A stretch of DNA of 61,985 nt, filler included, from Choristocarpus tenellus KU-1152 (lineage: Eukaryota > Protista > Phaeophyceae): the NCBI GenBank assembly GCA_964200185.2. It is 14 parts of 14 records of this genome, joined end to end, with 100 filler letters (N's around TTAATTAATTAA, not from the genome) between each part and the next. Parts side by side here need not be neighbours in the genome. Positions count along the whole stretch, not along the records: positions 47,804 to 50,892 come from CAXNAD020022397.1; positions 50,993 to 56,994 come from CAXNAD020009197.1; 12 more parts are not named here. The stretch is one strand, 5' to 3'. This document shows, piece by piece, positions 4,458 through 61,985 of the stretch (the stretch's first letter is position 1; each line of letters starts with the position of its first letter). A program made the position numbers and the translations under genes. A model generated the notes under the pieces. The model did not search any database. It had not been told where the DNA came from and saw nothing but the letters and a program-made list of their open reading frames with translations.

Positions 4458-4529
4458 GAATCATATCATTATCTCTTGGTGGTCTCTCCAATCTCGCAGT
4501 TCTTTTCCTCCGTTACAATGAACTAAGTG
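4458..4529 (+). CDS. 72-nt LRR exon GIISLSLGGLSNLAVLFLRYNELSG (open)
   Basis: CAG acceptor, GT donor at 4530. Confidence 0.9.
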
Positions 4530-13900: not shown

Positions 13901-14097
13901 TCCGTGAACATCTTGTCCTATACAGGTCTGACATTGTTGAGTTCATTTTTCATCTATTAAATTCTGTATTACACACATGTATTTCATAAAATATACTACG
14001 TGTGTTGCTACATATACACCGTTTTTTGTCGTCATTACTACTTTGTTATTATGCCCTTTAACAATTTCCAGATGTGTTACAATGTTGGCAATCGTCT

Positions 14098-14224
14098 GAG
14101 TGAAACTATCTCAGAGGGTACGATTTTTGCCCTGTTTGTCCATTTGGGGCTTGGCTTCTCATGGGTTTTAAATGACAATCTACCTACTCCAAAATGTTTC
14201 AGAGTAGGTAAAATGTATGCGGTA
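14098..14224. mobile_element. MITE family A, truncated by contig end
   Basis: GAGTGAAACTATCTCAGAGGGTACG plus family internal sequence. Confidence 0.85.
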
Positions 14225-14324
14225 NNNNNNNNNNNNNNNNNNNNNNNNNNNNNNNNNNNNNNNNNNNNTTAATTAATTAANNNNNNNNNNNNNNNNNNNN
14301 NNNNNNNNNNNNNNNNNNNNNNNN

Positions 14325-14395
14325 ACATCAAAATCACAACATTGTATTTTGATCACCAAATGGACGCAGCTCTACCCTCTAAGATACTTTGGCTC
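14325..14395. mobile_element. MITE family A, truncated by contig start
   Basis: Ends CCCTCTAAGATACTTTGGCTC. Confidence 0.85.
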
Positions 14396-15352: not shown

Positions 15353-17775
<2,423 letters not shown>

Positions 17776-20610: not shown

Positions 20611-20790
20611 GACTCAAAGTGTCTGGGGGGGGTGGTGGCTGTCCATTCGGGGGCCATTTTTCCATGTGGAGATTTTTGGGCGATTTGGTTACATGCATCG
20701 GATGGATAATGTAAGTACACTTCTCCTGGTCAGGACCGGAATGGACACCCTGGTGTAGTCCCTCCTCCCCTCCCACAGATACTTTGAGCC
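20611..20790. mobile_element. MITE family B, full length
   Basis: GACTCAAAGTGTCTGGGGG ... CAGATACTTTGAGCC; reverse orientation to the copy at 60446. Confidence 0.85.
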
Positions 20791-22393
20791 ATTGATACCG
20801 TACATGTCTTCTTCCTGCTACCTTGTAATGATGTTGAGTGCTTTAATAATATTACAGTGTTATGTTGTCTCTCCAAGAATCCCAGCAGATAAATTGGAGA
20901 TACCAAAGCTGTGGTGATACTTCATCCACTTTATATTTATATACTTGGGATTCTTGGGGACATACAAGAGACAGACATGTTCATGCCATTCTTCTCACGA
21001 CATAGTCCACCCACTAACACAGATACTCATTCATTGGACTAGAGTGTGAGCACTAGGGCTGATCGCCACTCGTACTCCACCTGTTTCCCTGAATTATTTC
21101 AACAAGGAGATTTTTCTTCCCAATGGCCTGTCTGAGATGAAGTGCTAAATTAGTTCCATTTGTCTGTGCCATACGTTGCCCATTTGGTCACATCCTGCCG
21201 TGACTAGGAAGCGCACCATTTATTGTACGTTCACCCCATACCAAGCATGCCCTTTGCCTCATTCTAAGCTCTACTCGTGGTTCCCCTGTCCACCTTTTCC
21301 TTCTTTCCGATTACGACCTTCACAAAACCGCTATGGTAGAAGACTTGAATGGGAACAGTCTGTTTCCATCACAATCTGGGGCTCTGGGATAATAATGCTA
21401 TTGATGCATTGCCCAACAAACACCTACTATCCCATGGTAGTGAATGTCACCTCGAATTTCAATGCGACCACTGTCACCGACTAAACCTTATCATTGAGTC
21501 CCAACCCTGTCTCAAGATAGTATGTAAGGTCTATTTTTGTCATCATTGCCTATGTCCACGCCATCTTCCAACAGGGGTGTCTGCACCTCCGATACTGTGG
21601 CACAGCTTCCAATGTCATCGGCGTCGGGAGTGTTGAGAGATGATACATAGATGGCCCCCTGACTTGGACAAGGATAAGAAAGACCGTCCCATGATGGTGT
21701 ATAGCTCAAATCTCTTCCAGGACCCCTGCCCATACCCCGACCCCTGGCAATGATCTGGGACATGCTCCTGCCCCAACCACGGCCCATCCTGTCCGTAGAT
21801 AGTGCTGCTGGTACACTACAAACACCATCGGTGGAGTAGATTAGGAAATGCAGACACCNNNNNNNNNNNNNNNNNNNNNNNNNNNNNNNNNNNNNNNNNN
21901 NNTTAATTAATTAANNNNNNNNNNNNNNNNNNNNNNNNNNNNNNNNNNNNNNNNNNNNAAAAAACGCCGCCGGGGGGGGGGGGGGGGGGGGGGGGGGGAA
22001 GTTGTCGCCCTGCCCAAAGGTAACATTCCTGACCAATGGCAACTAGGGGATCTGTTCTTTTTTCCGAATCAAAGGATGTTGATGTGCCTGCTGTATGGTT
22101 GAAGTTGACCAGTCAACACTGTCCACAGGTCTCTCTAACCAACCTGAAAGAGAAGAAAGAAATATCCAGTGCCTCCAAAAAAAATTGAGGTTCAAAACAA
22201 ACACTCCCATCTCATGGACACTCAAACTGAAAATAGGATGAGGTTTGTGCGGGGAATCCGTGGAAAAAGTTGTTCTCTTTTGATAAAATTAACCCCCCTT
22301 GAGCTCTTCAGGCTAACCTGCCATTGCCAAGGGGGTTATAAGTAGGTCATCTTGTAGCACACTTGTTTCCCACTTGTTTTCTACTTGTTTTCT

Positions 22394-22651
22394 AAGTGAA
22401 AGTATCTTAGAGGGTACGAGTTTTGCCCTGTTTGTCCATTTGGTACTTGACTTCCCTTGGGGGTTTTTCGACATTTTCCTACCCCAAAATCTTTCGGAAT
22501 AGGTAAAATGTATACGTTATGAAAAGGTGTGTCTGGAACAAGGATATTGACACTTCCTAACAAACACGATAGCCAAAATTACATCAAAATCGCAACATTG
22601 GATTTTAGTTCCCAAATGGACACGACTGTACCCTCTAAGATACTTTGACTC
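22394..22651. mobile_element. MITE family A, TSD TTCT
   Basis: TTCT flanks at 22390-22393 and 22652-22655. Confidence 0.92.
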
Positions 22652-22954
22652 TTCTACTTGTTATCGGAGTTCTATACACGCATTTGCCCGTTTTGCACTC
22701 TATTACGTTTTTGTAATGCCTGGAAAATACATCAATCCTATTTACTTTCTACCCCTAAGGTAGAAGCCCCCAAAATCTTGGAAGTGAGTAAAGAACAGAG
22801 TCCGACAAGCTAATCTCGTGATTTTCAATCAAACAAAAACTCTCGCAAGATAAAAATATTTGTTTTGGTAATTTCAGGGCATCCTTCTTTGTGCAACTGC
22901 AATATACCTCTCAATATTACTCTTCGTTTTTTTTTCTAAATTTATTTCCACCGT

Positions 22955-24656: not shown

Positions 24657-24828
24657 TTTGTTAGGAAGTGTCATTATCCTTGTTCCGGACAGACCTTTTC
24701 ATAACATAGACATTTGACCTATTCCAAAACATTTTGGAGTAGGAAAATGTAATAAAAAACCCCATGGGATGTCAAGCCTCAAATGGACAAACAGGGAAAA
24801 ACTCGTACCCTCTAAGATACTTTCACTC
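24657..24828. mobile_element. MITE family A, truncated by contig start
   Basis: Ends GTACCCTCTAAGATACTTTCACTC. Confidence 0.88.
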
Positions 24829-28068: not shown

Positions 28069-28313
28069 GAGTAAAAGTATCGTAGAGGGTACGAGTTTTG
28101 CCCTGTTTGTCCGTTTGGAGATTGACTTCCCACGGGTTCTTACGACATTTTCCTACTCCGAAACATTTAGGAGTAGGAAAAATGTATAGGTGTGTCCGGC
28201 ACAAGGATATTGACATTTCCTAACAAACATGATCGCAATATTAAGATCAAAATCGCAACATGGGACTTTGACCCCAAATGGACGCGGCTCTACCCTCTAA
28301 GATACTTTGAGTC
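28069..28313. mobile_element. MITE family A, TSD TACG
   Basis: TACG at 28065-28068 and 28314-28317. Confidence 0.92.
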
Positions 28314-29361
28314 TACGATTCTATAATGTTACAATCACCTGTTCATGCCTACTTACCATCTCTCCCCACCCTTTTTACACCCCAGTCATAACCTCTCACT
28401 TTCTGTATAAACTTCTACAATCGTTGCTATCTTTTCAAACTACTTGACTATCTCCTTGCCCATCCCTCTAGCCGTCACCCCCCTCACCTCTGAAGATGAT
28501 TTTCTTCAACTGCTTCGTTTTGGAACATCCCTGTACCCTGAGCAACCCACCCCAGTTGCGTTCACTACAACTGTCATCATTTTGTTCTTGGAGAAGTACT
28601 TCATCTACCTTCTCGATCAACCACCCTCTCTGTCAGTCAAAAATTGTCTTATTCTCTTGGTTGGGACTATGTTCAAGTACCCACAAATAAAGGACATCAT
28701 AGCACATACACCTCAAAAATCTCTTGGGACTGCAAAGATCCTCGTACACAAGGAAAAACATTCGTTTGGTCATGCCACCAAGGCACAATGTCAAAATTCC
28801 TATTTTCAATTCATCTTGCTAAGAGGGTGAGGAAAGAGAAACACGACAGGGAGGAGGAAAGACCAGTCAGTCAGCAAAACGAGCCAATTGGAATCAATAG
28901 GGAATAGGTCGGGGCGAGAAAAAGTTGGAGAGAGGGCTGATGGGGAGGAGGTAGAAGGTGAAGAAGTAGACTCACAGGGTACAGCAAAGGGTGATGAGTA
29001 CACACACATATACATACAATTGTGCCATAGGGCACTGCATCACCTGGGATAATTTTTTTCTCACCCTTCACGAAGATGAGATAGATCGGTGTAGTACAAT
29101 CCATGTTCTCCAAAACAAAATTACCGGCAAGCTATTTTTATTCGATTATGTAAGATAAGTGTCTAAATTGTGAACCAGCAGAGCGACAGGAACATGTAAT
29201 ACCAAGTTACATGGAATATAACACCCAATAATAGATCACCAATTCCTCGATTTAGGATTTTATCTATATAAATTATTTGAAGCATGTTGACAGCTAACCC
29301 CCAATTGTATGTATGTGTAGATTGTCATCACCCATTGGATTACAGCAATACTTGTATAATT

Positions 29362-29628
29362 GAGTCAAAGTATCTTAGAGGGTAGAGCTCCGTCCGTTTG
29401 GGGATCAAATCTAATGTTGCGATTATGATGCAATTTTTGCTATCGTGTTTGTTAGGAAGTGTCAATATCCTTGTTCCGGACATACACATGATACCTACTC
29501 CAAAATATATACTTTTTACCTACTTCGAAATATTTCGGAGTAGTAGGGAAATATCATAAAAACCCGTGGAAGCTAAGCCCAAAACGGACAAACAGGACAA
29601 ATTCGTACCCTCTAAGATACTTTCACTC
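29362..29628. mobile_element. MITE family A, TSD AATT
   Basis: AATT at 29358-29361 and 29629-29632. Confidence 0.92.
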
Positions 29629-29909
29629 AATTGTATGGGGGGGGGCATAGACGGATGGACACTAGTTACTGATGAGGTCAGCTTGTTCTCAGTCTGGAGT
29701 GGTGATAAAATATAGAAAGAGGTGTAATGCGACTTGAGGGCAAGATAAAGTGATATACACGGCCAATAATGTCACAGCAAGTCATACCCTATCAGCATGA
29801 ACACACGCATATATTACATTTAATAAAGGGGGGGGAAAGAAATTGCAATAAACACACATATGTTCATTGTGAAGGCGTTGTCTAGAAAGACAAGAAAAAA
29901 AATTCAAAA

Positions 29910-30886
29910 GAAGGGAAAGTTTATGAAGTAATCTGAGTTTTGTGGGCGGAAGAGTTATGGTGGTAATGTGGTACAGGGGAGGGAGAGGTGAGGAAGGAGA
30001 AAGAACAAATAGTAGGCAGGGGGTGAACGAAGAGTTAAGTACTGAGTGATTTAGAGGTAAAAGAGGCAGGATAGAAGTTAAAGAAGTGGTTGGTAGGTGG
30101 AGGCACAAGGTAAGAAGGAATGGTCGGGATGTAAAGAAAGTCGAGGGCTGGTGGTACAAGACGTGGAGGGGCTAGAACGTGACAATCTAGCCCAAAGTAT
30201 CTGGGGGGGACAAGCGGGGGGGGGGAAAAAACGTAAAAATCTAGCCCAAGGTTTGGGGGGGGGGGGGGGGAGGTCTACACGAGAGTGTCCATTTGGACCA
30301 AAACTAGGCAAAGTGCACTTTCATTATCCATCCGACGTATGGAACCAAATCACCCAAAAATCGCGACATGAAAATAATGACCCCAAATGGACAGCCGCCA
30401 CCCCCCCCAGATACTTTGAGCCACCTCCGAGCAAGCTCTCCCGCCCACCCACCCTGTCGCTTGCTTATGACCGATTGGGATGCTGGGTAAAGGGAGAGGG
30501 GAGGTCAAGTTTGGGCAGGCTAGATATCTTCTAGTTCGAAGGCACGGTATGAAGTGGATGATGAAGGGGTGTTCATGGATGATTGTGGAGTGGTGTTGAG
30601 TTGTGTGGGGGAGTGGTAAGTGGTGTGGGGTTGAGTGGGGTTGAAGGGTGGGGTGGTGACTGGAAATCAGTGGCGAAGGGGTCGCACTGGTTGGTCATCA
30701 GATGTGGGGAGTGACAGGAAATCAGTGGTGAAGGGGGTTCGCACTGGTTGGTCATCAGAGGTGGGTGGCGGCTGGAAATCAATTGCGAAAGGGGTTCGCA
30801 TTGGTTGGTCATCGCAGGGGGGGGAGGTGGCGGGAAATCAGTGGCGAAGGGGTTCGCACTGGTGGGCTGCAAGGGATGGTACGATG
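29910..30886. repeat. Dispersed repeat with internal ~55-59-bp minisatellite (copy 1)
   Basis: Collinear with 36590-37240; four units of GGAAATCAGTGGCGAAGGGG..CGCACTGGTTGGTCATC from about 30662. Confidence 0.85.
30189..30422. mobile_element. MITE family B, TSD ATCT/ACCT
   Basis: Empty paralogous site CAATCT|CCGAGCAAGC at 36825-36840. Confidence 0.9.
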
Positions 30887-32149: not shown

Positions 32150-33260
32150 GGTGCGTCTAGTGGCAAATGTCTTCGTCGCATTGAGGGCTTAGATTACCAA
32201 GATACCTTACTCCCACACCATCGCCTGCTTCTTGGAATAATGGTTTTAACATTGACTTCAGACAGGGGATTGGGAGTTGAAGCATTAGGATGCGAAGCAG
32301 GCTTTCATCCAGGTAGATATGAAGAGGGCATACATGTTCCTTCACGGGATAGATGTAGTACATGGTCAGGGAGGATTGTCCGGATTACTGGAAGCAATCT
32401 ATGCAACCAACCAGGCTAGCAGAGAGTTTAGCAATTGTTTCAGAACAGATCCCTATGTGATATTCTATGCAGAAAATGGCGAAGTTTGTGCAGTAATAGC
32501 ACCCCGCGATGATGACCTTGTAGCTGCAGGATTGTATGATGTTTTGATTTGGTTTCGCACTGTAATTGAGGCGAAGTTTTCCAGGGAGGAACTTGGTCAT
32601 TTGTAGTATATTATGGGCTGTAGTGAAAGTATCTTAGGGGGTACGAGTTTTGCCCTGTTTGTCCCTTGGTGCTTGGCTCCTGATATATTTTTTTTATGAC
32701 ATTTTCCTACTCGGAAATGTTTTGGAGTAGGTAAAATGTATACTTTATGAAAAGGTGTGTGTGGAACAAGGACATCGATACTTCCTAACAAACACGATAG
32801 GTAAAATTACATCAAAATCACAACATTGGATTTTGACCCCCCAAATGGACAGCGCTCTACCCTCTAAGATACTTTGACTCTTGTGAGATTTAACGTGACA
32901 GAATTGCAAAGATGTTAGAACCAGTCAGATTGTGTACATTGAGAGCATTTGTGAGAGATTTGGTGTGGATGGGCCAAAGTATCTGGATGGGTGCGGAGGA
33001 GAAATGTCTCTTGATTATCAGAACATTGTGAATTTGTCTTTAACAGAAAGCGAGTACATAGCCCTATGTAGTGTGGCACACGAGATATTTGAGAAATGTG
33101 TTGGAGAATTTACGACCATAGTTCTCCAGGCGTTACACTGATATGTTAAAGGATAACGATGTTGCACGAAAGCTAGTGTGTAATGCTACCAGTTCATCTA
33201 AGAGATGAGTACATGATATCAGACACCTTTTCTTGAGAGATCTGAGAAGAAAAATTATGT
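32150..33260 (+). mobile_element. Ty1/copia RT-RNaseH relic
   Basis: GLDYQDT, LEAIYATNQASRE, DPY, DDDLVAAG, ELGHL*YIMG, YIESICERFG, LSLTESEYIAL, DIRHLFLRD; many stops and deletions. Confidence 0.85.
32621..32880. mobile_element. MITE family A inserted in copia relic
   Basis: Near-TSD CTGT/TTGT; interrupts MGC|EI. Confidence 0.9.
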
Positions 33261-33418
33261 TCGTGTTATTTTTTGTTATGCTGAAAACAGAGTGCAAATA
33301 TGTTGACAAAGAGTTTGCCTGTGGAAGGTTTTCAGACAACATGTGAGAATTTTGATTCACATGTAGCAGCATTGTGTGTGTGTTTATTCGTTCTTATTAG
33401 TTTTGATGTTGTGTTTAT

Positions 33419-33486
33419 GAGCCAAAGTATCTTAGAGGGTAGAGCCGCGTCCATTTGGGGGTCAAAATCCAATGTTGCAATTTGAT
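33419..33486. mobile_element. MITE family A, truncated by contig end
   Basis: GAGCCAAAGTATCTTAGAGGGTAGAGCCGCGTCCATTTGG. Confidence 0.88.
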
Positions 33487-33750
33487 NNNNNNNNNNNNNN
33501 NNNNNNNNNNNNNNNNNNNNNNNNNNNNNNTTAATTAATTAANNNNNNNNNNNNNNNNNNNNNNNNNNNNNNNNNNNNNNNNNNNNTCTGATATTCTATT
33601 GAGTTGACTTAGTGTTTAGTACAATTTAACTCTGCCTAGGGTGGATGGTGCATTCAGGTTACCCCAGTGAACCCCCACTCTTCTGAGCACTCATCCCACC
33701 CCACAATCCCTCTTCCCAACTTCTTGAATCCTCGCTTCCCTGGCTGAAAG

Positions 33751-34744
33751 ACGATGTGGTCAGTTCAAGCATAAGCATGAGTGCCCCTTCAAATCTTTGT
33801 CACAACTACGCAGCCAAGGGGTACAAGTTGACCCTATCCCAAGCCGGTGGGATCCCGCAGTCTCCATGAAAACCCCCCCCCGCTCCAACAGTAATGGAAG
33901 TATTGGCAGCGATGCCTACACTAGGCCAGGTTCAGCAGGGAGCTCCCCAACTCTGCATCCCCTTACCCCTCCACCACCAGGCGTTGCCATACCTGGGGAG
34001 AAAGTGCTGACTGTTCGCGATGGCCCCGGCCGTCCGCTGTTTGCTCGAGGTGGTGCAGGAACCCCTCCATGTTCGCCAGGCTCATCACGGGATGTTCCTG
34101 CTGACACCGGTGATAACGCCTTTTTTGGTGGGGTGAACGATCGTACTGTTTTTGCAAGACCATATCAAGCTGTGCTTGTACATGACCGGGAGCAGTTTGA
34201 GTCAGAAGAACAGGAACGCAATGTGAATGACCCTCAGGTGGAGCATTCGATGCAGGCGGTGGTGGCGACAGTGGACAGGATCTGGGATTCGCGTGAAAAT
34301 GAAGTTGTCCCATCCCCAGGTAGGACCATGGAGTCTTTTTCAGCGTTGAGAAATGGTCATGCTCCGAACAACAAGGGCATGCAGGTCTTGGCGCACATGC
34401 AGCCAGGGTTATCACAGATGGACTGCGAGACTGGAGGCATTTGGACCAGTCGGGAGGTGCAGATGGTACCACCCTCTGGGGTACTTTCTCCATCGCCACC
34501 TCCTGTGTCTCTTCCAGTTGGTGGTTACTCATCTACCCCTAACCCCTTGGGGTCACAGGAGGAGGATGAGCAATGGTCAATGGATAAGAACGGGCCCCAC
34601 CTTCATCACAGTGACACGGGAGAGGCACTGGATATGGAATTTCATGCACTGGCAAATGTTCTCCTGTGTGAGGATGATAACTACATGAATAGTCCTTTCA
34701 GGGAGGTGGACAACATGTTGGACTTCCCCCCCCTCACAGGATGA
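33751..34744 (+). CDS. Last exon of a CxxCGxxKxxHxC zinc-finger protein with a long disordered tail
   Basis: The 315-aa ORF extends upstream in frame to RCGQFKHKHECPFKSLSQLRSQGVQV after an AAG acceptor; first Cys presumably in an upstream exon; resembles stramenopile CCHC fingers. Confidence 0.7.
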
Positions 34745-36589: not shown

Positions 36590-37240
36590 CGCGAGAGTTT
36601 ATAAAATAGTCTGAGTTTTGTGGGCGGAAGAATTCTGGTTGGTTGGGGGCACAGGACAAGCGTGGGCAGGGGAAAGAAAAAGAAGGAAGCAGGAAGAGAA
36701 CGAATAGTTAAGGAAGGGAAGAGAAGGTTAACGGAAATGGGTTGTAGAAAATGGGAGGAACAGCATTCAGTGATTGATAAAGGGAAGAGAACCAGGGGTA
36801 CAAGACGAGGAGGGGAGACCAATGCAATCTCCGAGCAAGCTCTCCCGCCCACTCACCCTGTCGCTTGCTCACGATCAACGGGAACACTGGGAGGGAGGGG
36901 GGGGGGGAGGGGAGATCAAGTTACGGCGGGGTAGATGTCTTCTAGCTCAAAGGCATGGTTTGAAGTGGATCATGAAGGGGTGTTCTTGGAGGATTGTGGA
37001 GTGGTGTTGAGTGGTGTGGGAACTGCTGTGGGGTTGAGGGGAGTGGTAACTTGTGTGGGGTTGAAAGGTGGGGGATGGCTGGCAATCAGGGGCGAAGGGT
37101 ATTCGCACTGGTTGGTCATCAAATGGGGATGGCTGGCAATCAGTGATGAAGGGCATTCGCACTGGTTGGTCATTAAATGTGGGGGATGACTGGCAATCAG
37201 TGACGAAGGGTATCCGCACTGGTTGGTCATCAAATGGGGA
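36590..37240. repeat. Dispersed repeat with internal ~55-bp minisatellite (copy 2)
   Basis: Shares TCTGAGTTTTGTGGGCGGAAG, CCGAGCAAGCTCTCCCGCCCAC and minisatellite units with 29910-30886. Confidence 0.85.
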
Positions 37241-47261: not shown

Positions 47262-47502
47262 GAGCATAAGTATCTTAGGGTTAGGGTAGAGACACGTCTG
47301 TTTGGGGGCCAAGATCCAATGTTGCGATTTTGATTTAATTTTTGCTATTGTGTCCGCTAGGAAATGTCGATTTCGTAAGGTATACATTATACCCGCTCCT
47401 ACACATTTTGGAGTAGGTAAAATGTCATTAAAAACTCATGGGAAGTCAAGCCCCAAACGGATAAACAGGGCAATACTCGTACTCTCTAAGGCAGTTTCAC
47501 TC
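47262..47502. mobile_element. MITE family A, diverged
   Basis: Near-TSD TTAC/TCAC; both TIRs recognisable. Confidence 0.85.
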
Positions 47503-49691
47503 TCACCTTTTGTTTTAATGAGGAGGGTTTGGTTGATTCCAGACATCGGCATGATGTATACACTACACATGGACATGGACATGGACATCACACAAGCTTC
47601 AAGAAGGCCTTCAAATTAACTGTGGCTGAATGAAGCCTATCCCCCCCCCCCCCCCTTTAAAACAGTGACACAAAAAAGATTTTTTACTCCCCCTCTTTCG
47701 TCANNNNNNNNNNNNNNNNNNNNNNNNNNNNNNNNNNNNNNNNNNNNTTAATTAATTAANNNNNNNNNNNNNNNNNNNNNNNNNNNNNNNNNNNNNNNNN
47801 NNNCAAATGGACAGCCACCCCCACCCCCCCAGATACTTTGAGCCCGAACACCATGCATGTAGTAGTAGTATAGCTCAAGTTTTTATCAGGCTTGGGAAAG
47901 AAAGTTTTGTTGTTGGAACCACCCCTGTCTGTGCCGAAGTTGGCTTTAGTGAATAAAGTTATTTTATTGCAAAGAACCGTATCGTGTTTGCTGCAGGGCA
48001 GTGTTGTTGATTTTCGTGCCTCACAAACTACAGTTCACTGTCTCTTTTGATTATATATATTTCGGTGCGGGGAGGGTTGGTCCTCATCTGGAGTTGCTCT
48101 CTGTAATCTCTTACTGGAGCTACATACTGGCACAATACATACTCTATTATTGGGTAGCTGCCAAACCTGATGCTGACGTATGTATATGGGTCAATAGTCT
48201 TCACTGTAAATCTTGAAAGGCATGTACAGATTGAACCTACAGGTTCTGACTAATTCTGTCAGTGGCTAATATGTAGAGAGAGATCAACTGTAAATATTCA
48301 ACAGATAGCAATTTCTGCATCAGAAGAAAGCAGGGGAGGGTGACGGTGCTTAATCGACTCAATGAGTGGGAAATTTGCATATTCTCATTAATTGGGTATC
48401 GCTGGTACCACAGGCCTGCTACATGTATATTAGTACTATTATTTCAGTGTGCTAGACTCTGTCTACTACGAAATAGATACTGTACACTCCGGAGTAATAT
48501 TATGCCCACCGAGACATTGAGGGGATTGTCATGCAAATATATATATATATATATGTATATAAAGGGCAGAAGGCAATAATACACGTAGTACCATAATACA
48601 GACCGGAGAAGAGGAAATATTATGAAAAAAATACCAACACAACAACGACAGGAGTGGACTACCAGATTGCAAGCACCAACTACTCTTGCTGAAGTTACGG
48701 AAAACAGTAGACAAGAAAACAAAGAAAATCAACTCCTAAAAAAATAGACTAAATATATATACATATCGTAGATCGTCAAACTTACACCGTGCTGTATGTG
48801 ATGGATAATGAATTAAGTGTGGAATTTAAAGCTTAACTCGGCCCTATTTTCTACGAGGAATACAACCATCACCATCCTGTAGACTAATTCCTCCGACTGT
48901 AGAAAACGTATTTTTGTATATACCAGAAGACATCAACCAGATAACGCCTCTCTGGGGTAGAAACTGGAAGAGGCCTTACTACTAATCCTGAATGGTGGGG
49001 TAAGCCCTTTCAACTTACTTCTACTGATTTGTCTGGTAGAGATCTATCCTCCACCCTACTTTAGTGCCGTGTGCAGCGTGCCATAGCAAGTACATTTCGA
49101 ACGCCTGCTCGAAACTTAAAAAACATTTTACAGAAACTTCCATATATGTGTGTGTATGTGTGTCTGTACGAGTGGTAGAAGAATGCTACAATATGGGTGG
49201 GCTACAATTGTAACACGTAACCTTTTCCCTACCTGGAAAATAACGCATTATGTTCCCTTCGATAATAGGACACAACATGAAATCTTCGTATAATCCCCCA
49301 TTTTTACGTTATTATTCTCCTGCCCCACTTCAACCAGTTTTACCCCAAGAAAGAAGATGACAGTAACGACTGCACCACCCTTCGGTGACAGTGCCAGAAG
49401 TCAGTTGAAGATTACAACCAGTTCCATTTAGCGTACCCTAAAAGAACTCATTCTTAGGGAGAGAGCACAGGACATTCACACCAGCGTGGGTGGAGACTTG
49501 TCTACGGCGTGGGGTTTGGTAACTCTGTTGGCGGACTACAAAACGCCAGTAGGGGTGCTGTCACACATATCTGAGGAACAGGTAGGTGGAGGAAGGCATA
49601 TTACCACTGCGTAGAGATAAAGTGGTATGTGTGTGGGAAAGGAGTAGAGGGAACGCCATGAAGTGCCTTCCAAGTGAGGGAACAAACTTGT

Positions 49692-49870
49692 GACTAAAAG
49701 TATCTGGGGGGGGGAAGGGGGGGTCAGCACCAGGGTGTCCATTTAGGCCATAACCAGGAAAGTGCACTTATTTTATCCATCCGACGTATGCAACCAAATC
49801 ACCGAAATATCGCGACTTAAAAAAATTGGCCCCAAATGGACAACCGCCGCCCGCCCAGATACTATGAGCC
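49692..49870. mobile_element. MITE family B, TSD TTGT
   Basis: GACTAAAAGTATCTGGGGG ... CCCAGATACTATGAGCC flanked by TTGT. Confidence 0.9.
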
Positions 49871-51041
49871 TTGTTTTTTCTATGTTCCTTCAGCCACACA
49901 TACATGTCTTCATCAGTCACTCCCTACAAGACAACAGGGAAACCCTATCAGTGAGAAAAGTAAGCAATAACATTGATGTGAGACTATACGCAATAAAGCT
50001 ACTGTTTGCAGGGATTGTGGCATGCATGGACAATGCTCATTCAAAAACATTGATGTTTGGGAAGCTTGCAGCTAAGAAAACGAAGATTATATCGACAAGG
50101 GGAGAAAAAGTAGTGGTGATCTCTTCAAGGTGACGTTGAGAGTTCAACTTTCCCAGGAAAAATGTGGTGTTTACTCCCAGATCCAAACCATTGATACTGG
50201 TGAGTGGAGAGTGGAGAATGGAGTCAGACGCTTCATGGACATCTACAATAGAATGCTAGGGATGCCGAGCCAGCCACAGATCATTGCATATAATAGTGCC
50301 CACAGTCATCTAGCACACATGATACTACCTGCGGAGCTTTGGGTTGGGTTCGGGGTCTGACCTTGGAAACCCTTCACAATAATATGTTACAGCACACTCC
50401 AGACCTCACCTCCACAGGATGTGCAACTCAAATCCAACAAACTTAAAACAACGATATGGGGGCGATACCTTTGATAACAGTTCTTGGGTGTCAGACAGCC
50501 TTCTCTCGATACTCCACTCAGTGCATAGCTCAAAGCTCGACTCAATATTTCGTTCAAGATAAAAGACTGTTAAAGAGGGGTGATGGATTGTGACCAAAAG
50601 CCCTTTTTATTATTTTCATCATCCACCTGTTTTCTTTAGACTTCTGTAGTTAAAGACCATCCGCAAACTGCTGTATACACAATCCAATCATAAACCTTCA
50701 TTCTGTAACTTCTAGGGACTGACTTTGACGTTTCTTCTGTAAGGTTACGTATGCATCACGAATCTTACTCTGCATCTTCTAAGGAATCAGCATTCGATCC
50801 AAAGTATCTGGGGGGGGGGGGGGGGGGGGGCGCCACTTAAAAAAAAGAAAAAAAAAAAAAGAGAGGGGGGGGGGGGTAGAGGGGTGTGTGCTNNNNNNNN
50901 NNNNNNNNNNNNNNNNNNNNNNNNNNNNNNNNNNNNTTAATTAATTAANNNNNNNNNNNNNNNNNNNNNNNNNNNNNNNNNNNNNNNNNNNNGGAAAATA
51001 TACCGGGTACAAGTAACACTGTGTACATACATCAAACCCAC

Positions 51042-51517
51042 CTCTCCACGCCGGTGGATGCTCTTGCGTTAGGTGTGCCTTTGCAAGCGTCGATGACATG
51101 ATTGGATATCCTGAACGATGCCTTGAAAAACTGCGTACAGACGGGAATGCCAGCCGCGAGCATAGATCCACCTCCAGGTCCCAACTTAATGACAGGTACA
51201 AGGTCGCCAACGAAGTGCTTGCGATCGCGGCGGTTCTCACACGCCCGGATGATGTCCTGCTCTTTGGCCAAGGTGCGTGCAAGGAAAGACTCGCCATCTG
51301 CCGCGAACTTCTTCACACAGGCTAAGCGCTTGCAGCAGTCACCCTGTTCGTTGACCGGGATGGGTTCAGCCCATCCTTGGTGAAGCTTGGTGCCGGTTGC
51401 TGAAGCGCCATTGGTAGGAAGCTCCAGCGCATCATTGTTGACAGGCTGGTGAGGGGGCAACACGGGGGGAGACGCAGGCGACAAAAGCCACCCCCTTGCT
51501 GTGGAAGCAACTGTCAT
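51042..51517 (-). CDS. Cys-rich exon, possibly N-terminus of a Sola-type transposase (rest off contig)
   Basis: 161-aa ORF with CCKRLACVKKF ... VCTQFFKASFRIS; plausible donor GAG|GTGGG; no DDE core visible. Confidence 0.35.
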
Positions 51518-51591
51518 GGTGTTTTCGGGCAGCAGGCGGTCTTGGGCAGTGAGAAGGTCTAGGAGTGATTATATTCGAAGGCGAGCATATG

Positions 51592-53030
51592 AACTTTGTT
51601 TGAGCCTCGGGCGATCGGTGGGACAATCCTGAGATCCATGATCCTGAAAATCCGTGCGTTACACTTTTTGGAAGTTGTAAATCCGATTATATCCGAGATT
51701 TCTATTGTAAAAAATCTGATTATATCCGTGATTTGTATTTTAAAAAATACAAATCACATATTTAATTGATATTGTACGTTTCCAACGTTCCGAAACCAAC
51801 TTTGTCTGAGCCTCTGGCGATCGGTGGGACCACCCTGAGATCCATGATCCTGAAAATCCGTGCGTTACACTTTTCGGAAGTTGTAAATCCGATTATATCC
51901 GTGATTTGTATTTTTTTAAATACAAAGCACATACTTAATTGATATTGTACGTTTCCAATGTTCCGAAATCAACTTTGTTTGAGCTCTGGGCTATCCACGG
52001 GACCACCCTGAGATCCATGATCCTGAAAATCCGTGTATTACGTTTTTAGGAAGTTGTAAATCCGATTATATCCGTACTTACAATTAAAAAAAAAAAATCG
52101 CATACTTCATTGATATTGTACCTTTCAAATGTTCCGAAACCAACTTTGTTTGAGCTCCGGGCGATCGGTGGGACTACCCTAAGATCCATGATCCTGAAAA
52201 TCCGTGCATTACGCTTTTCGGAAGTTATAAATCCGATTATATCCGACTTACAATTTTTTTAAATACAAAGCACATACTTCATTGATCTTGTATGTTTCCA
52301 ACGTTCTGAAACCAACTTTGTTTGAGCTCTGGGCTATCCGTGGGATCACCTTGAGATCCATGATCCTGAAAAACCGTGTATTACGTTTTTCGGAAGTTGT
52401 AAATCCGATTATATCCGTACTTACAAAATTTAAAAATACAAAGCACATACTTCATTGATCTTGTACGTTTCCAATGTTCAGAAACCAAAACTTAAAAAAA
52501 CAACTAGCACCCTCTAATTTTTTGAAGTACAAAATCTTACAAAATTGGACATTTGGATTCTTGTAAATTCTAGAGACGACAAAAAGGGGTTCTTTGAGTA
52601 AAACGGATCCGATCGGATTCCGTTTACCCTTGAACACCCAAAACACGTGCATTAGGATTTTTAGAAATAATAAATCCAGTAATAACCGTTCTTACAATTT
52701 TTGAAAATACAAAGCACGCTCTATATGGGTCTCACACGTTTCCAATTTTCAGAAACTAAAAGGTCACTTCCAACTGGTACCCACAATTTATTTAAATACT
52801 AAAACCGCTTTTTGGCGACTTTAGTATATTCTTAAAAATACTAGAGACGATAAAAAATCGGATCTATAGTTTTAAAGATCCGATCTGATCTCCTAAACCA
52901 TTCAAGAGCCAAAACACGTGCGTTAGGGTTTTTACGAAATAATAATGATATTCTAGTCTTTACATCAACAAATACAAATACAAACCACATCCTTCATTGA
53001 TCCATTACGTTTGAAACGTACGAAACGAAA
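51592..53030. repeat. Tandem array: five ~172-bp units then two diverged 271-bp units
   Basis: Marker motif GTTTCCAAyGTTChGAAAC (imperfect in some units) starts at 51778, 51951, 52122, 52294, 52467, 52738, 53009 (spacings 173, 171, 172, 173, 271, 271). Confidence 0.93.
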
Positions 53031-53672
53031 AGGTCACAAAAAAACAGCTACTCTCTGTCTCTTTTCAATACGAAATCGTATGTTGTTTGATATTCTTTTT
53101 TTTTTAACATAGTTCTCAACAGAAATACAAATATGAGTTTTGAGGACCGACCGACCAGATGAAATAAAGCAGCACCTCCCATACCTCAGTTCTCATTTCA
53201 ATTCATTCCCTTCTGTACATACCACGCGAACCTGTTATTTATCGATCCCCATCACACCCTCCCAATCTTCGCCATATCCAGCATTCCCTCAACAACAACC
53301 CACCCGCCCGCCGATGGCACTGCCCATGGATGGAGAACGTGGGACAGCAATCTGAAGTGCATGTCCTCGCTCCTAGAGCATCACTACCTCGGCACGTACC
53401 AGATAAAACTTGGCAACATCACATGCACGGAGATGGTGCGTCCCCTGAGCGAGCGTAGCCTTGCGCGCGTCAGCAAGTCTATACAGGAGAAAGGCTGGCT
53501 GGAGCAGTTTGCTCCATCTGTTGTAATCCAGCGAGACTGTTCAGGTAATGGGGACCAGCTCAATGCCGAAACTGCGCTTGCCATTCAACGACGTACACTG
53601 GACAGAAACCATAGAATAACGGTGCTGAAGAGAGAGAGTTTGATCCCGAACGTGCTTTCATGATGCGGATCT

Positions 53673-53931
53673 GAGTGAAACTATCTTAGAGGGTACGAGT
53701 TTTGCCCTATTTGTCAATTTGGGGCTTGGCTTCCCATGGGTTCTTTTATGACATTTTACTACTCCAAAATGTTTCGGAGTAGGTAAAATGTATACGTCCT
53801 GAAAAGGTGTGTCCGGAACATAGATATTGACACTTCCTAACAAACACAATAGCCAATATTACATCAAAATCGCAACATTGGATTTTGGGCCCCAAATGGA
53901 CGCGGCTCTACCCTCTAAGATAATTTAGCTC
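53673..53931. mobile_element. MITE family A in ParB-like exon, TSD ATCT
   Basis: ATCT at 53669-53672 and 53932-53935; removal restores FMMRIYMEFNQ. Confidence 0.93.
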
Positions 53932-53987
53932 ATCTACATGGAGTTCAACCAAGCAGAAGAGGGGCTAATTGCCAACGGTGGGTGATG

Positions 53988-54278
53988 GAGTGTTTTCGTT
54001 GTTCCATGATATCCTGATTATTCTGATCAACTAAGCAACAAAGTAAGTTGAGTGTTTTCGTTGTTCCATGATCGCCTGATTATTCTGATCAACTAAGCAA
54101 CAAAGTAGGTTGAGTGTTTTCATTGTTCCATGATCGCCTGAACATTCTGATCAACTAGGCAACAAAGTAAGTTGAGTGTTTTCGTTGTTCCATGATTGAC
54201 TGACTATTCTGATCAACTAAGAAACAAAGTATGTTGAGTGTTTTCGTTGTTCCATGATCACCTGATGACTATTCTGAT
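53988..54278. repeat. 62-bp intronic tandem repeat (~4.7 copies)
   Basis: Units start at 53988, 54050, 54112, 54174, 54236. Confidence 0.93.
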
Positions 54279-57094
54279 GTACGAAGTTGTTGCCGAGTTT
54301 CCTTTGCTTGGTTCGTCGTCAGTCAGCCCATTGTGGATCTTTTTGTTGTTCATCTTTCTTATCCCTCGTGGTCTCTCTGTCCAGAGCAACATGTTGCTCA
54401 GTACTGCATGCCGCATGTGTCCCGCGACCGCTCCCCACCTAACCCTTGTCCCATTCGTCCACTGCACCGCCACGCTTATAGCATTCAACGATGCGACCGA
54501 GAGTGTGGTTGACCGCACGCTATACGATAAGATATATTTTCAGCACGAGCTCAAAGAATCTATCAAGCGACAGACGAAGAAAAAATAAGTGTCACTAGTA
54601 GAGATCCGAAAAATGTACCAAAAGGTGAGGGAGTTGTCAACGTTGGTGGGATGGTTGCGCTCTACTCCTCCTCTAGTTGGGTTACAGATGTTGTGAAATC
54701 TCTCTGTGTCCTCCTATTCAATCTAAGTTGAGATAGTGTAGGAGCCCTGTCAACCAACCTATTGATTTTCGGGTGACCATGTAGTATGTATGTGTGGTTA
54801 ACCACAGACGTACAATAAAAAGCATCCTTGATTGTTTTATCGACGGTGTTGCCTGAAACCCCCCCCCACACACACACACAAATACATACCCCATTGGCGT
54901 GGTAATAACAATGCCTCATCCTCGCTGGCTGGGTGCATAATATTTTCCGTTTTCTGCCCATCGCGAAGGTGGGCGTTACTCCCCTGGCGAAAACAACTCT
55001 ACAAAACTGGCAGCAAGGCATAAAGTCCCTTCGACCAGAGTCCTTCGAGGTACTGAAGGAAGTGTGTGAGACCTCGTCACTACAGGTCGACCGCAACGCA
55101 GTCACACTGAACTATCTGAGTCACGAGGAGTTTGCCGGCTTCACTTCTCTCAAGCAGGGGCTATGCATCCATCTGCTTGCTAGGCAAGTCAAAACGCCAC
55201 TGTGTTTTATCGTGTAGACAGCAGTAAGCGCAATGTGTGCAGGTCGCAGCACATTGCACAGGAACGTTAAATAAGTTTCTCCTGCGATGAAGAATGTAGT
55301 CGGCCATTGTTGTGTCGAATGAAGAACCCTTCGTAGTATTGTGGTAATTCTACAACAGTGTGTGTTTCCTGTGTATGTGCGCTCTTGTCTTTTATGAACT
55401 ATGACAATCGATCCATGAACATTTGCTGCAGTGGTGACCCTTTCCTCATCATTACCTGCGCATCGTTCTCATTGACATCCTTCATGGCCATTCGCTTTTT
55501 GCAGGTACAAGTCGTTCTACGGAAAGGTTTCTACGGCAAGGGACTATAAGGACATCGAATCGGACGTGCACATGTCTGAGATGGTTTTCTTGCACACCAG
55601 GCAGATTGTGCCCAAGGAGAAGTGGACACCAGAGCTCCAAAGGTTGGTAATTGGTGCAGTTGCAGGGGTTATCTTTTTTTGCCTTTTCCGTATCTCCTGT
55701 GCGCCCATACGTCGCCATGCGCCCCTCAATTGTATAAAAATACTGTCGGCGTCTTTTTCGGCACCGCACTTATTGATTGTTGCAAAACTGCTCTAAATTC
55801 CGGACGTTACGTGAATGATGCATGGGTTGGCAGGGAAATGGACAGGCTTGCATATGAGAAGTGCAATATGCACGACCTCTGGGTCAAGCCCCACTACGAG
55901 GAGAGGAAGAGGGAGGTGGCCCAACTTCTGCAGAAGGTTTTATCTGGCGACCAGCAAGCGGGGCCTGTCCGGCAGCTGAGGGCAACATCTCTACGGTAGT
56001 CGGAATGAACCTCTGCAACGGGTCAGAGCCGTGAGTGTGCCTCCTGTGTTCGTAATTACAGCTGAAATGGCTTGTACCGAAAAAAATAGTTGATGCTTGG
56101 TAGGATTGGTGGTGGGTCTTTCTCATCATCATGAGTGACAGAGTTGCCTTCCCTACAACAAACGATGCTGTTTTGACAGTTCTAGACTTTCATTGCTAAT
56201 AGCGGGAATAGCCAATCATTTCCTTCAACTGTAGACAATGATCTTGGTCAATCTCCGCCTCGTTTCTGCTTCCAACACGTGTCACTGTCGTAACCTACAG
56301 ACAGGCTGGCGTCCTGGACATAGACTTCTTTCAAGCTATTTCACCCCGCAAGCTGCCTCCATTAAACACGTTCACCACGTCAACCGTATCGTTTGCTCTG
56401 TTCGATTGACATGCTATCGTACTTCCATTACACTCTCCCATTTTTGATGTCACCATCGTCCCCTCCTCTCCTCAACAACGTGCTCCGCCGTGTCCACCAC
56501 CAGATTCTCGAGAAGGACTCGACTCTATGCGCTTACCTCACCACCCGGGATGGGAAATACCAGGATGTCCTCAACCAGGTCAACCTCCATCGGGTTCACA
56601 GGGGGCGGGGCTGTGATGGTGGCGGCGCAGACGTTGAGAGTAACAATGGATCCGCATCAGATGGCCGTGAGAAAGAAGACGAGGGAGGGTGCGAACACAA
56701 AGGAGGGGATGGAGACGAGGGAGGGGACGAACACAAAGGAGCGGACGAAGACGAGGGAGGGAACGGACTGCCAGACAGGGAGGATACGGGCGAAGGGGGT
56801 TCTGTCGGCAGTGTTCCTGATGTGGAAGAAGAACAAAACGGCCATGGAGGGTGGAACGCGGGCGTTTGCTGTACTGAATGCAATCCTCCACCTCAGTCTC
56901 GGTGAGTAATGTAGTTGTAACGGTGCACATGGGGATGGCGGATAATTAATGGCGTAAGATTGGTTTCCATCCAATCCCCCGAACGGCTAACTAGNNNNNN
57001 NNNNNNNNNNNNNNNNNNNNNNNNNNNNNNNNNNNNNNTTAATTAATTAANNNNNNNNNNNNNNNNNNNNNNNNNNNNNNNNNNNNNNNNNNNN

Positions 57095-57133
57095 CAAATG
57101 GACGCGGCTCTACCCTCTAAGATACTTTGGCTC
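57095..57133. mobile_element. MITE family A terminus at contig start
   Basis: CAAATGGACGCGGCTCTACCCTCTAAGATACTTTGGCTC. Confidence 0.85.
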
Positions 57134-60100: not shown

Positions 60101-60445
60101 TTTGGGATCAACCAAAAGGTGAGCTCTGGGAGCAAAATGGGAAAAAAAGTGTGACTGCTAACACACTACTACTGCAGAGTTGTGTTACACGACTTCATCA
60201 ATACAAAATGAAATGTAATGTATAAATGTTGCATAAATGAATATCTGTTCAGGATATCATTAGCCAAAGGTTGACAGTGTATGGTCAGCATACCAATCAA
60301 GCTTTTCGAGGTCTGAGTATTTGGGTTCAGCATACGAACAGTCAGGCAAAGTACGAGTGAGGTTGACGGGATGTGTTGATGGGATGTGATCAGCGTCGCA
60401 TCATCAGGCTCGTGGTTAAGGTCTAAGGGCATGGACCCAGCACAT

Positions 60446-60617
60446 GGCTCAAAGTGTCTTGGGGGGGGGGCTACACCAGGGTGTCCATTCGGGCTCTGAC
60501 TAGGAAAAGTGTACTTACATTATCCATCCGACGCATGCAACCAAATCACCCAAAAACCACGACATGGAAAAATGAACCCTGAATGGACAGCTGCCACCCC
60601 CCCCCATACTTTGAGCC
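60446..60617. mobile_element. MITE family B, full length
   Basis: GGCTCAAAGTGTCT ... CATACTTTGAGCC; TSD not clean. Further family B termini lie at contig edges near 30987, 36390, 40868, 41040, 44416, 47804, 50797, 61965. Confidence 0.88.
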
Positions 60618-61985
60618 TATATATCTCTTTTATCTTGTACAAACAGAGGGTACTGGAGAATGGGGATACCAGGAACAAACGCTTTGCAACGCCAATAATT
60701 ATTGACAAAATTTGTGATCTGATGATGCTATAAATGAGTGTTACATTATGTTTTGATTTCACACCAATGCGTGAAAACACAAGCGCGTGTAGGTGATCAG
60801 AAATCGATGCAACAGAAGACGAGATCAATAGACGATGTGCGCATACTTCTGCTTCCTCACATTTTGCTATGATAGGGAATATTGCTCACAGCTTCTAGAA
60901 TATTCCAAGGGGACAATAGGTCGTGCGATGTTGGAGATTCAACTCTCAATACGATATGATGTAACTGTACTGTCATTAGAGCCAAACCGATCGAGAGGTA
61001 GGCAGGTTGTACCCTTTTGCATTCTAAGCCCTCTTAATTACCCTGTGCAATACACTCTATTTCATTGCTTTATGTGCACAACATGTTTGCAAAATTGATA
61101 TTCCCCTTTTCCACACACATAGTAAACCACAATTCAGCTAAGACTGTTTCTGCAAATGTACAATATGGTTTACTTGCGTCCTTTCTTGGCATCCTTAAAA
61201 TGCAACCCTGTCTAACTCTCAGTTGGTTAGACTTACTAGATCATGCCAAGGGGATCACGCCACTCAAAAATATGTATTATTTGATATCTATGATGCAGCA
61301 TAGAGGTGGCACATCTTTATTCAGTCCTATTTTATAGCGCCCATGAAAGCAATAAAATGAATAATCGAAGTGAGAGGTTCAGCATATTTGAATGTGTTTT
61401 CTTTGTGGCACCTTCAACGAGCTTCATTATCCACATCCAGCCTAGTAGATTGGAGCTACAAATCCCATCATGGCAAGCTTGCAGAGAATTTGTAACAGAC
61501 TTAGTAAACACGATATGTCAAATTCAGAGCTGGTCATGAACAGATTGACTGAGATCTGTTGCCAGTTTTCTAATCTCTTTACAATATACGGTAGACTATA
61601 CCCATCGATGACAATGTGACATACAAACGATTATTTAATGAGATGGTGAACCTATGTACGGGATTATGATATGTGGGTAACACGAGATATAGGCCAAGAG
61701 AGACCAATCAAAAATGAGATTGGCGAGGATCTGTACAACATACTGGAGTGTATATACAATATTCTTTTCTTAGACGTTGGTTGTTCTACTACTTCGACAA
61801 TGCACAAGGTACAGACTATGCAAAGGTGAATGGTACCAGTAAAAACGAAATTTCAAGAAAAGACTGTTTAGGACTATAGCATGTACTGATTCTCCTATCC
61901 ATTTGCCGCACAATAAGCTGCAATAATTTCATGGCATTGTGGGATTTGTTCCTCTCTTTTGTAAGGCTCAAAGTATCAGGGGGGG

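What the first reader, a model, noticed from the sequence alone, without database searches (positions are those of the whole stretch)
50993..56994. Spliced ParB-like gene + parS-like tandem array + divergent transposase-like ORF on one contig
Seen: a multi-exon gene starts ~330 bp from a 1.45-kb tandem array, with a Cys-rich ORF pointing away on the other side. Known: ParB proteins are CTP-dependent DNA clamps that load at clustered palindromic parS sites, usually near their own gene. Inference: this may be a large eukaryotic DNA transposon or virus-derived element with a ParB-like protein and its own binding array. I know of no described brown-algal system like it, but cannot search to confirm. 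This copy is dead; intact relatives may exist.
Basis: partly seen in the sequence, partly recalled or inferred. Interest (0 to 1): 0.85.

Follow-up and report, generated by a model that had tools for sequence, protein, structure and literature searches.

The report
Seaweed jumping gene with ParB helper
This is a broken piece of a highly repeated element in seaweed DNA, likely a giant transposon, whose intron-containing helper gene is predicted to make a protein shaped like bacterial ParB DNA clamps and sits beside a repeat array that the protein may grip; the same design was reported in brown and red seaweeds in 2025, so this is a further example, not a new system.

Summary
One 6.0-kb contig carries (i) six exons of a broken, spliced gene whose named homologues are all brown algal, one of them modelled as ParB/Noc/KorB N-domain plus HTH (Foldseek E 2e-5; VIA Z 10.4), (ii) a 1.46-kb array of 8 units, and (iii) exon 1 of a divergent, spliced Cys-rich gene. 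Public runs hold all three parts as thousands of 80-99% alike contigs, with no listed pile of loose ends at the array borders, so they likely form one high-copy unit. One run shows exact splice joints for both genes. The reading 'large DNA transposon with a ParB-like accessory gene' is well supported, but it is published: Ectocarpus Sola1-1_Ec32 (ParB-like + methyltransferase gene opposite the transposase) and red-algal Plavaka PAG3 (ParB + adjacent inverted-repeat arrays, self-binding proposed). Not shown: that the Cys-rich gene is a transposase (no database hit; element ends lie off the contig), that the array is parS-like (palindromes not above shuffles; no Bacillus-type parS; only a TCCG-rich unit with gapped inverted repeats), CTP use, or binding. 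Verdict: new member of a known kind; interest 0.3.

The parts
51042..51517 (-). Exon 1 of a spliced Cys-rich gene (about 159 codons); candidate N-terminus of the transposase; the rest lies beyond the left contig end
   Evidence: ORF and ATG; loose end in run X3 at 51041 at a GT donor, 5 contigs; Atlas look-alikes are unnamed arthropod/oomycete proteins, 0.92-0.93, recognition below the reliable level; no family hit
51580..53040 (.). Tandem array, 8 units (206, 4 x 171-173, 2 x 271, 1 partial), rich in TCCG/CGGA and GATC, with gapped inverted repeats TCGGA-N9-TCCGA (3 exact) and GTTTC-N9-GAAAC (4 exact); candidate binding array and divergent promoter region
53274..53977 (+). ParB-like gene exon 1 (ParB/Srx-type N-domain; Box II glycine lost, frameshift near 53630, MITE inserted)
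   Evidence: 77% identity to P0001; profile hit E 7e-39; fold of homologue
53673..53932 (.). 260-bp MITE, GAG...CTC ends, 4-bp target duplication; secondary insertion, not part of the system
   Evidence: inverted arms; about ten relatives in the window, three with matching 4-bp flanks read (this one, 22391, 29629); empty-site joint 53668-53932 with 4 shared letters in run X1
53988..54266 (.). 62-bp x 4.5 minisatellite in intron 1
54482..54624 (+). Exon 2 (end of N-domain, first helix of HTH); in-frame stop at 54586-54588
54969..55183 (+). Exon 3 (predicted HTH recognition helix and following helices); GC donor
55505..55642 (+). Exon 4
   Evidence: GT..AG joint to exon 5 in run X3
55834..56030 (+). 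Exon 5, two frameshifts near 55983 and 56007
56504..56901 (+). Exon 6 (helix, acidic Gly-rich linker, Cys cluster); followed by a donor, so further exons lie beyond the contig
   Evidence: X3 joint lands on 56504

Best explanation
The contig is the broken middle of one copy of a highly repeated brown-algal element, likely a giant cut-and-paste DNA transposon of the Sola1-1_Ec32 design, in which a spliced accessory gene for a predicted ParB-fold, helix-turn-helix protein and a spliced gene that is likely the transposase point away from a shared tandem array that the ParB-like protein would bind. Shown: gene structure, lesions, array, many diverged copies of all three parts, splicing of both genes in one run, ParB-type fold of an Undaria homologue's model, conservation of the Box II GxxR motif in the family. 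Inferred: in intact copies the protein dimerises, recognises the short TCCG-containing inverted repeats with its HTH, closes as a nucleotide-gated clamp (CTP by analogy only) and spreads over its own element, where it regulates the two divergent promoters and/or delivers a C-terminal DNA-modifying domain (a methyltransferase in Ectocarpus Sola1-1) that marks the element and helps it escape host silencing. It is not a segregation system: no ParA or ParA-binding motif is seen. My odds by step: high-copy mobile element 0.9; DNA transposon with the Cys-rich gene as transposase 0.7; Sola1 in particular 0.5; protein binds this array 0.5; CTP-gated clamp 0.35; methyltransferase in the unseen exons 0.5.
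For: Fold: model of P0004, pLDDT above 90 over residues ~11-120, best Foldseek hits Noc, ParB, KorB, E 2.3e-5 to 9e-4; VIA Z 10.4 to PadC (rmsd 3.5, 128 aligned) and 9.6 to KorB (rmsd 4.2, 133 aligned, model 19-191), unrelated rows at 6.1 and below; phage ParB-like proteins in BFVD to E 1e-6 and in the Atlas. Family: 64 clusters at 50% identity; DGxHR intact in 52 of 67 proteins; every named homologue is brown algal, with several per species: Choristocarpus 3, Sphacelaria 2, Pylaiella 2, Ectocarpus 1, Undaria 1. Multi-copy unit: 5,107 (X1) and 3,452 (X2) contigs lie on 50994-53660, most 80-95% alike, 30 of 30 bins covered in 4 of 4 runs, 1% run on into unlike DNA, and the listed loose ends hold at most 7 contigs, against up to 520 at the MITE ends. 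Summed depth outside the MITE is 6,694-56,293 in X1, long contigs with unique flanks 19-24. Splicing: X3 joints at 55642/55834 (GT..AG) and into 56504, absent from X1, X2, X4; X3 loose end at the Cys-ORF donor continues in frame without a stop for ten codons (read by eye). Array unit: TCCG/CGGA 6 against 0.77 expected in one 172-bp unit, family-wise p 0.003; 19.8 per kb against 4.6 in the rest of the contig and 2.8 in the rest of the window. Precedent: PMC12477816 and bioRxiv 2025.02.11.637652.
Against: No terminal inverted repeat, target duplication or DDE core of the large element is on the contig. The Cys-rich ORF has no hit in Pfam, PHROGs, NCBIfam, the 5.8-billion-protein search or JGI metagenomes; its likeness to Sola N-termini (CC..C ... 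VCxxFF...IS) is recalled, not tested. No listed contig spans the whole stretch, 724 loose-end rows were not shown, summed depth is no copy number, and all four runs are one study that may include the source sample. Perfect palindromes in the units do not exceed dinucleotide shuffles: 1 of 18 tests under 0.05; the TCCG excess is not significant in the 271-bp unit alone (p 0.37); the gapped repeats were picked by eye from the array itself. No methyltransferase or oxygenase domain was detected in P0001, P0004, P0005 or P0082, which may be truncated models. No sequence profile calls the family ParB at a significant level (PHROG ParB families only E 0.06-0.09 for P0082). 17 of 28 purified ParB-fold proteins bound no NTP in one survey and specificity was not predictable (PMC12704722).
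Confidence: 0.7

Rival explanations
1. Giant non-autonomous or other-superfamily transposon (KDZ, EnSpm/Plavaka, unknown) in which the Cys-rich gene is another accessory gene rather than a Sola-type transposase.
For: [quoted passage not shown]
Against: In the passages and supplement rows read, the only brown-algal ParB-carrying element named is Sola1-1 with the same opposite-strand layout; the Cys pattern resembles Sola N-termini (recalled).
Confidence: 0.2
2. The array is a passively amplified promoter minisatellite inside the element and is not bound by the ParB-like protein.
For: Palindrome content at chance level; no Bacillus-type parS within 3 mismatches in the array; another minisatellite arose in intron 1; unit number and length vary between copies (joints).
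Against: TCCG words recur on both strands within the unit; arrays beside ParB accessory genes are reported across red-algal Plavaka families.
Confidence: 0.35
3. Endogenous piece of a large DNA virus or Polinton-like element that uses ParB and the array for partition or packaging.
For: Nearest structural and language-model look-alikes are phage and giant-virus ParB-like proteins.
Against: Both genes have spliceosomal introns; no relative in IMG/VR or GenBank phages; no viral hallmark or ParA gene on the contig; identities to viral proteins are 8-21%.
Confidence: 0.05
4. Domesticated single-copy host gene next to an unrelated satellite.
For: Homologues occur across several brown-algal orders.
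Against: Thousands of diverged contigs over every part; several paralogues per species; this copy carries at least five lesions.
Confidence: 0.02

Closest known systems
Sola1-1_Ec32 of Ectocarpus sp. 7 (PMC12477816; passages, section 5 part 1 of 2, supplement table rows read; FASTA supplements not readable)
   Same: Brown alga; high-copy element (1,989 annotated pieces); accessory ParB-like gene transcribed on the strand opposite to the transposase; self-binding proposed.
   Different: Its accessory protein is 1,104 aa with an N4C/N6A methyltransferase domain; here only ~500 codons are on the contig and no methyltransferase is seen. The passages read mention no array between the genes. Direct sequence homology to Sola1-1 could not be tested.
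Plavaka accessory gene PAG3 of Bostrychia and other red algae (bioRxiv 10.1101/2025.02.11.637652; passages read)
   Same: ParB-like N-terminal domain without Pfam hit, found by profile/fold (their best hit 7BNR is also a hit here); tandem arrays of inverted repeats next to the gene; same self-binding proposal.
   Different: EnSpm/Plavaka transposase, three-gene cassette, C-terminal 2OG oxygenase; red algae.
Bacterial ParB/Noc/KorB/PadC CTPase clamps (PMC12704722 passages; structures)
   Same: N-domain fold followed by HTH; Box II GxxR conserved in the family.
   Different: 10-18% identity; spliced eukaryotic gene; no ParA or ParA-binding motif seen; no canonical parS; C-terminal half unrelated or unresolved; nucleotide unknown.
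ParB-HTH-fused chlorophyte-type Dam methyltransferases and phage ParB-terminase-locus methylases (PMC4738411; passages read)
   Same: Eukaryotic ParB-type domain of probable phage origin fused to DNA-modifying enzymes.
   Different: Reported from chlorophytes and chytrids; no methyltransferase shown for this gene.
VANDAL/VANC anti-silencing system (named in the passage read; array binding recalled)
   Same: Transposon accessory protein acting on its own element.
   Different: Unrelated protein; Mutator-type plant elements; experimentally shown, whereas this is not.

Membership tests
ParB-type CTPase clamp | ParB/Srx N-terminal fold | tested here: met
   Model of homologue P0004: Foldseek E 2.3e-5, VIA Z 10.4, rmsd 3.5, 128 aligned. 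Window exon 1 is 58% identical to P0004 there.
ParB-type CTPase clamp | Box II GxxR motif | tested here: met
   DGxHR in 52 of 67 family proteins; 8 lack the region, 7 are substituted. The window copy itself has lost the glycine.
ParB-type CTPase clamp | Box I and Box III motifs | tested here: inconclusive
   R35, G53, P60 nearly invariant and N128 invariant in 7 longer proteins at plausible places; residue-level equivalence was not printed.
ParB-type CTPase clamp | Central HTH DNA-binding domain | tested here: met
   Helices 164-173 and 181-193, pLDDT 84-95; match to KorB extends to residue 191.
ParB-type CTPase clamp | C-terminal dimerisation domain | tested here: inconclusive
   Model below pLDDT 60 for most residues after 210; only generic helical-bundle matches.
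ParB-type CTPase clamp | CTP binding, hydrolysis and sliding | not testable with these tools
   Needs biochemistry; specificity not predictable from sequence.
ParABS partition system | ParA partner and ParA-binding motif (LG-R/K-GL) | tested here: not met
   Motif absent from the N-termini of P0001, P0004, P0005 by inspection; no ParA-like ORF on the contig, which is only part of the element.
ParABS partition system | Palindromic parS sites | tested here: inconclusive
   No match of a recalled Bacillus-type consensus in the array, 2 chance matches elsewhere against 2.54 expected; palindromes not above shuffles; gapped inverted repeats recur.
Sola1 transposon (Sola1-1_Ec32 type) | Sola-type DDD transposase | tested here: inconclusive
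   Only exon 1 is on the contig; no hit; single-sequence model pLDDT 46; motif likeness recalled.
Sola1 transposon (Sola1-1_Ec32 type) | Terminal inverted repeats and 4-bp target duplication | not testable with these tools
   Element ends lie off the contig; no genome held.
Sola1 transposon (Sola1-1_Ec32 type) | Many diverged genomic copies | tested here: met
   dispersal over chromosomes not shown.
Sola1 transposon (Sola1-1_Ec32 type) | ParB-like accessory gene on the strand opposite to the second gene | tested here: met
Sola1 transposon (Sola1-1_Ec32 type) | C-terminal N4C/N6A methyltransferase on the accessory protein | tested here: inconclusive
   Gene runs off the contig; none detected in four homologue models.
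Plavaka PAG3 cassette | Tandem array with inverted repeats next to the ParB-like gene | tested here: met
   Array adjacent and co-repeated; the inverted repeats are short (5-bp arms).
Plavaka PAG3 cassette | 2OG oxygenase domain, PAG1/PAG2 and Plavaka transposase | not testable with these tools
   Not on the contig; no PAG sequences available here.

The most novel reading that the evidence does not exclude
An old, diverse family of brown-algal transposons uses a true nucleotide-gated ParB sliding clamp in the eukaryotic nucleus: it loads at the TCCG-containing inverted repeats of its own promoter array, spreads along the element and carries a DNA-modifying domain that writes a private epigenetic mark on every copy. 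This family is high-copy and apparently still transcribed and spliced, so it would give a direct test bed.
Probability: 0.3. Interest if true: 0.75.

Novelty: new member of a known kind. Interest (0 to 1): 0.3.

Why it matters
The design is published, but in the passages read it rests on domain prediction alone; six library searches listed no paper that tests binding or nucleotide use. This element adds a brown-algal case in which the array lies between the two divergent genes, candidate binding words, conserved Box II residues over some 60 clusters, and signs of spliced transcripts. If binding and CTP gating were shown, it would be a bacterial-type DNA clamp working on eukaryotic chromatin and a further transposon that marks its own DNA. 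As it stands it is one dead, partial copy.

Tried and rejected
No genome is held, so termini, flanks and dispersal could not be read. Pfam, NCBIfam, PHROGs and PDB sequence searches gave no significant family hit for the ParB-like proteins or the Cys ORF; hits to Gly-rich linkers, phycocyanin and EF-Ts were taken as chance. No related loci in IMG/VR or JGI metagenomes; the wide alignment had no conserved block to scan with; phage genomes gave one E=7 match. No RNA holder is listed on record. The Cys-ORF model (pLDDT 46) was too poor for a fold search, which was not run. A dimer prediction was not run because the queue was full. P0061 (a repeat protein, 1 of 64 hits) was dropped as spurious before counts; alignment A2 used 53 of 68 proteins; the tree used 76 of 89 rows and is poorly resolved (133 columns): it puts window exon 1 nearest three Choristocarpus proteins but in no starred clade. 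The alternative ATG at 53315 is in another frame and ends after 13 codons. The 14-bp-arm palindrome at 51728-51757 is in one unit, with a shorter form in the next, and is not a unit-wide feature. Earlier findings by sequence or place: none. The original Sola paper is not held; Sola motifs and termini other than those are recalled.
Full report
Setting. The window is a chain of short contigs joined by N linkers; the finding is one whole contig, 50993-56994. No genome is held, so context came from protein searches and from laying public contigs on the stretch. The host is a brown alga by inference: every homologue that carries a name is from one.

The gene. The ORF at 53163-53660 has no Pfam hit, but its core finds proteins of Choristocarpus (77%), Undaria (58%) and, through the Undaria protein, Ectocarpus, and 64 clusters at 50% identity (one, P0061, is a spurious repeat protein and was dropped). 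tblastn of these natural proteins lays colinear pieces from 53274 to 56902, and the splice signals define six exons and a further donor at 56902, so the gene leaves the contig. The copy is dead: the Box II glycine is replaced, the frame breaks near 53630, a 260-bp MITE sits at 53673-53932, exon 2 has a stop at 54586-54588 and exon 5 two frameshifts. Many other copies in the runs lack the stop and the frame breaks, and one contig joins across the MITE site.

The fold. I folded the Undaria homologue P0004 with 52 relatives: residues ~11-120 and ~141-210 are confident, the rest mostly not. Foldseek ranks Noc, ParB and KorB first (E 2.3e-5 to 9e-4); the independent wide search ranks PadC (Z 10.4, rmsd 3.5, 128 aligned) and KorB (Z 9.6, rmsd 4.2, 133 aligned) above sulfiredoxin and SerK (Z 8.3, 8.2) and above unrelated bundles (6.1 and below). 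The match covers the N-domain and runs into an HTH. Viral look-alikes are phage ParB-like proteins. DGxHR, the Box II equivalent, is intact in 52 of 67 proteins; 8 lack the region and 7 are substituted. Sequence profiles do not reach ParB significantly. A shared fold does not give the nucleotide: in PMC12704722 (passages) 11 of 28 purified ParB-fold proteins bound an NTP, CTP, ATP or GTP, and the choice was not predictable. No ParA-binding motif is seen in the three long homologues.

The array. It spans ~51580-53040 and has 8 units: one of 206 bp, four of 171-173, two of 271 and a partial one. It is not shown to be parS-like. Perfect inverted repeats per unit do not exceed dinucleotide shuffles (1 of 18 tests under 0.05), and a recalled Bacillus-type parS has no match in it within 3 mismatches. 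What stands out is a short word: TCCG/CGGA occurs 6 times in the one 172-bp unit tested (0.77 expected, family-wise p 0.003 against mononucleotide shuffles), but not significantly in the 271-bp unit alone (4, p 0.37); over the array it reaches 19.8 per kb against 4.6 and 2.8 outside, and GATC 15.7 against 3.7 and 2.7 (units are not independent). The words form gapped inverted repeats, TCGGA-N9-TCCGA three times and GTTTC-N9-GAAAC four times (patterns chosen by eye). These are candidate binding sites, no more.

The Cys-rich gene. It starts at 51517 on the minus strand, about 60 bp from the array. Five contigs of run X3 leave the window at 51041, exactly at a GT donor, and continue in frame, so this is exon 1 of a spliced gene. 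It has no hit in five searches; Atlas neighbours are unnamed arthropod and oomycete proteins, with weak recognition; the single-sequence model is unusable. Its CC..C and VCxxFF...IS pattern resembles Sola transposase N-termini as I recall them; that is a lead only.

One repeated unit. Four runs of one study hold the stretch. On 50994-53660 lie 5,107 contigs of X1 and 3,452 of X2, mostly 80-95% alike; all 30 bins are covered in all 4 runs; 1% run on into unlike DNA; listed loose ends hold at most 7 contigs. The MITE, a known independent insertion, shows up to 520 contigs at its ends, which is what an independent satellite should show at the array borders. Summed depth outside the MITE is 6,694-56,293 in X1 against 19-24 for long contigs with unique flanks; this is no copy number, but it points to hundreds of copies. 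Limits: no listed contig spans the stretch, 724 loose-end rows were not shown, and the runs may include the source sample. X3, whose kind is not on record, has joints at two predicted introns that X1, X2 and X4 lack; I infer that it is RNA and that some copies are transcribed. Other brown algae also hold several copies: Choristocarpus 3, Sphacelaria 2, Pylaiella 2 (6 of 10 clusters looked up were named). No relative was found in IMG/VR, JGI metagenomes or GenBank phages.

Mechanism. Most likely this is the middle of a giant DNA transposon. The two genes are transcribed outward from the array. In intact copies the accessory protein would bind the array through its HTH, close as a nucleotide-gated clamp and spread, controlling the promoters or bringing a C-terminal modifying domain to its own DNA. 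Structure, linkage and splicing are shown or strongly indicated; transposase identity, binding, nucleotide and the C-terminal domain are inferred. No methyltransferase was detected in four homologue models; the tail of P0005 looks by eye like a degenerate methyltransferase strand-helix-strand, which is recalled and untested.

What is known. PMC12477816 (passages, section 5 part 1 of 2, supplement rows) describes Sola1-1_Ec32 of Ectocarpus, 21.5 kb, 282-bp TIRs, 4-bp duplication, with a 1,104-aa ParB-like plus methyltransferase gene on the strand opposite to the transposase, and proposes self-binding and self-modification. bioRxiv 2025.02.11.637652 (passages) reports Plavaka PAG3, ParB plus 2OG oxygenase, with adjacent tandem arrays of inverted repeats and the explicit parS analogy. 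PMC4738411 (passages) lists ParB-HTH-fused methyltransferases in chlorophytes and chytrids. The FASTA supplements of the Ectocarpus paper, its figure, and the preprint's supplements were not seen; they would settle whether this family is homologous to Sola1-1 and whether that element has an array. An earlier AI note of this scan (e1-6729154) reports the same design in an animal; I did not check it. Six searches listed no experimental test of these proteins.

Verdict. Observation confirmed; interpretation partly supported; it works like the published algal ParB-accessory transposons, and membership of Sola1 is open. New member of a known kind, interest 0.3; 0.75 if a nucleotide-gated clamp on its own array were shown (probability about 0.3).

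Noticed in passing
window 53673-53932; relatives near 10671-10929, 14095-14395, 16022-16276, 22391-22660, 24657-24828, 28069-28308, 29361-29629, 32622-32875, 33417-33483, 47262-47502, 57095-57133: A very abundant 260-bp MITE family with GAG...CTC ends and 4-bp target duplications; about ten copies or ends in 62 kb, several at contig breaks; summed depth above one million in run X1. Ends and duplication length recall Sola-type MITEs (recalled).
   Followed up: partly
window ~20607-20792, 30256-30422, 49690-49871, 60444-60621: A second short repeat family (~180 bp, G-run and C-run arms) whose ends share the AAAGTATCT/AGATACTTTGAGC word with the first MITE; probably mobilised by a related transposase.
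   Followed up: partly
window 189-5095: Degenerate direct repeats of about 650-670 bp at ~75% identity with strong G and T skew on the first contig; not reported by TRF. Could be repeated exon-intron units of a minus-strand gene.
   Followed up: no
window 30425-30866 and 36829-37240: Two related stretches (78% over 418 bp) each ending in a 54-57-bp tandem repeat.
   Followed up: no
window 5835-6719 (+) and 33728-34741 (+): Long open frames of 295 and 338 codons without Pfam hit.
   Followed up: partly
proteins P0002-P0068: Most family members are first-exon ORFs whose homology stops at about the same place as intron 1 of the window gene (41 of 67 fit a rough junction pattern), which suggests an old shared intron.
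   Followed up: partly
window 50993-56994: CpG is about twice as dense in the element (44-48 per kb) as in the rest of the window (24 per kb).
   Followed up: no
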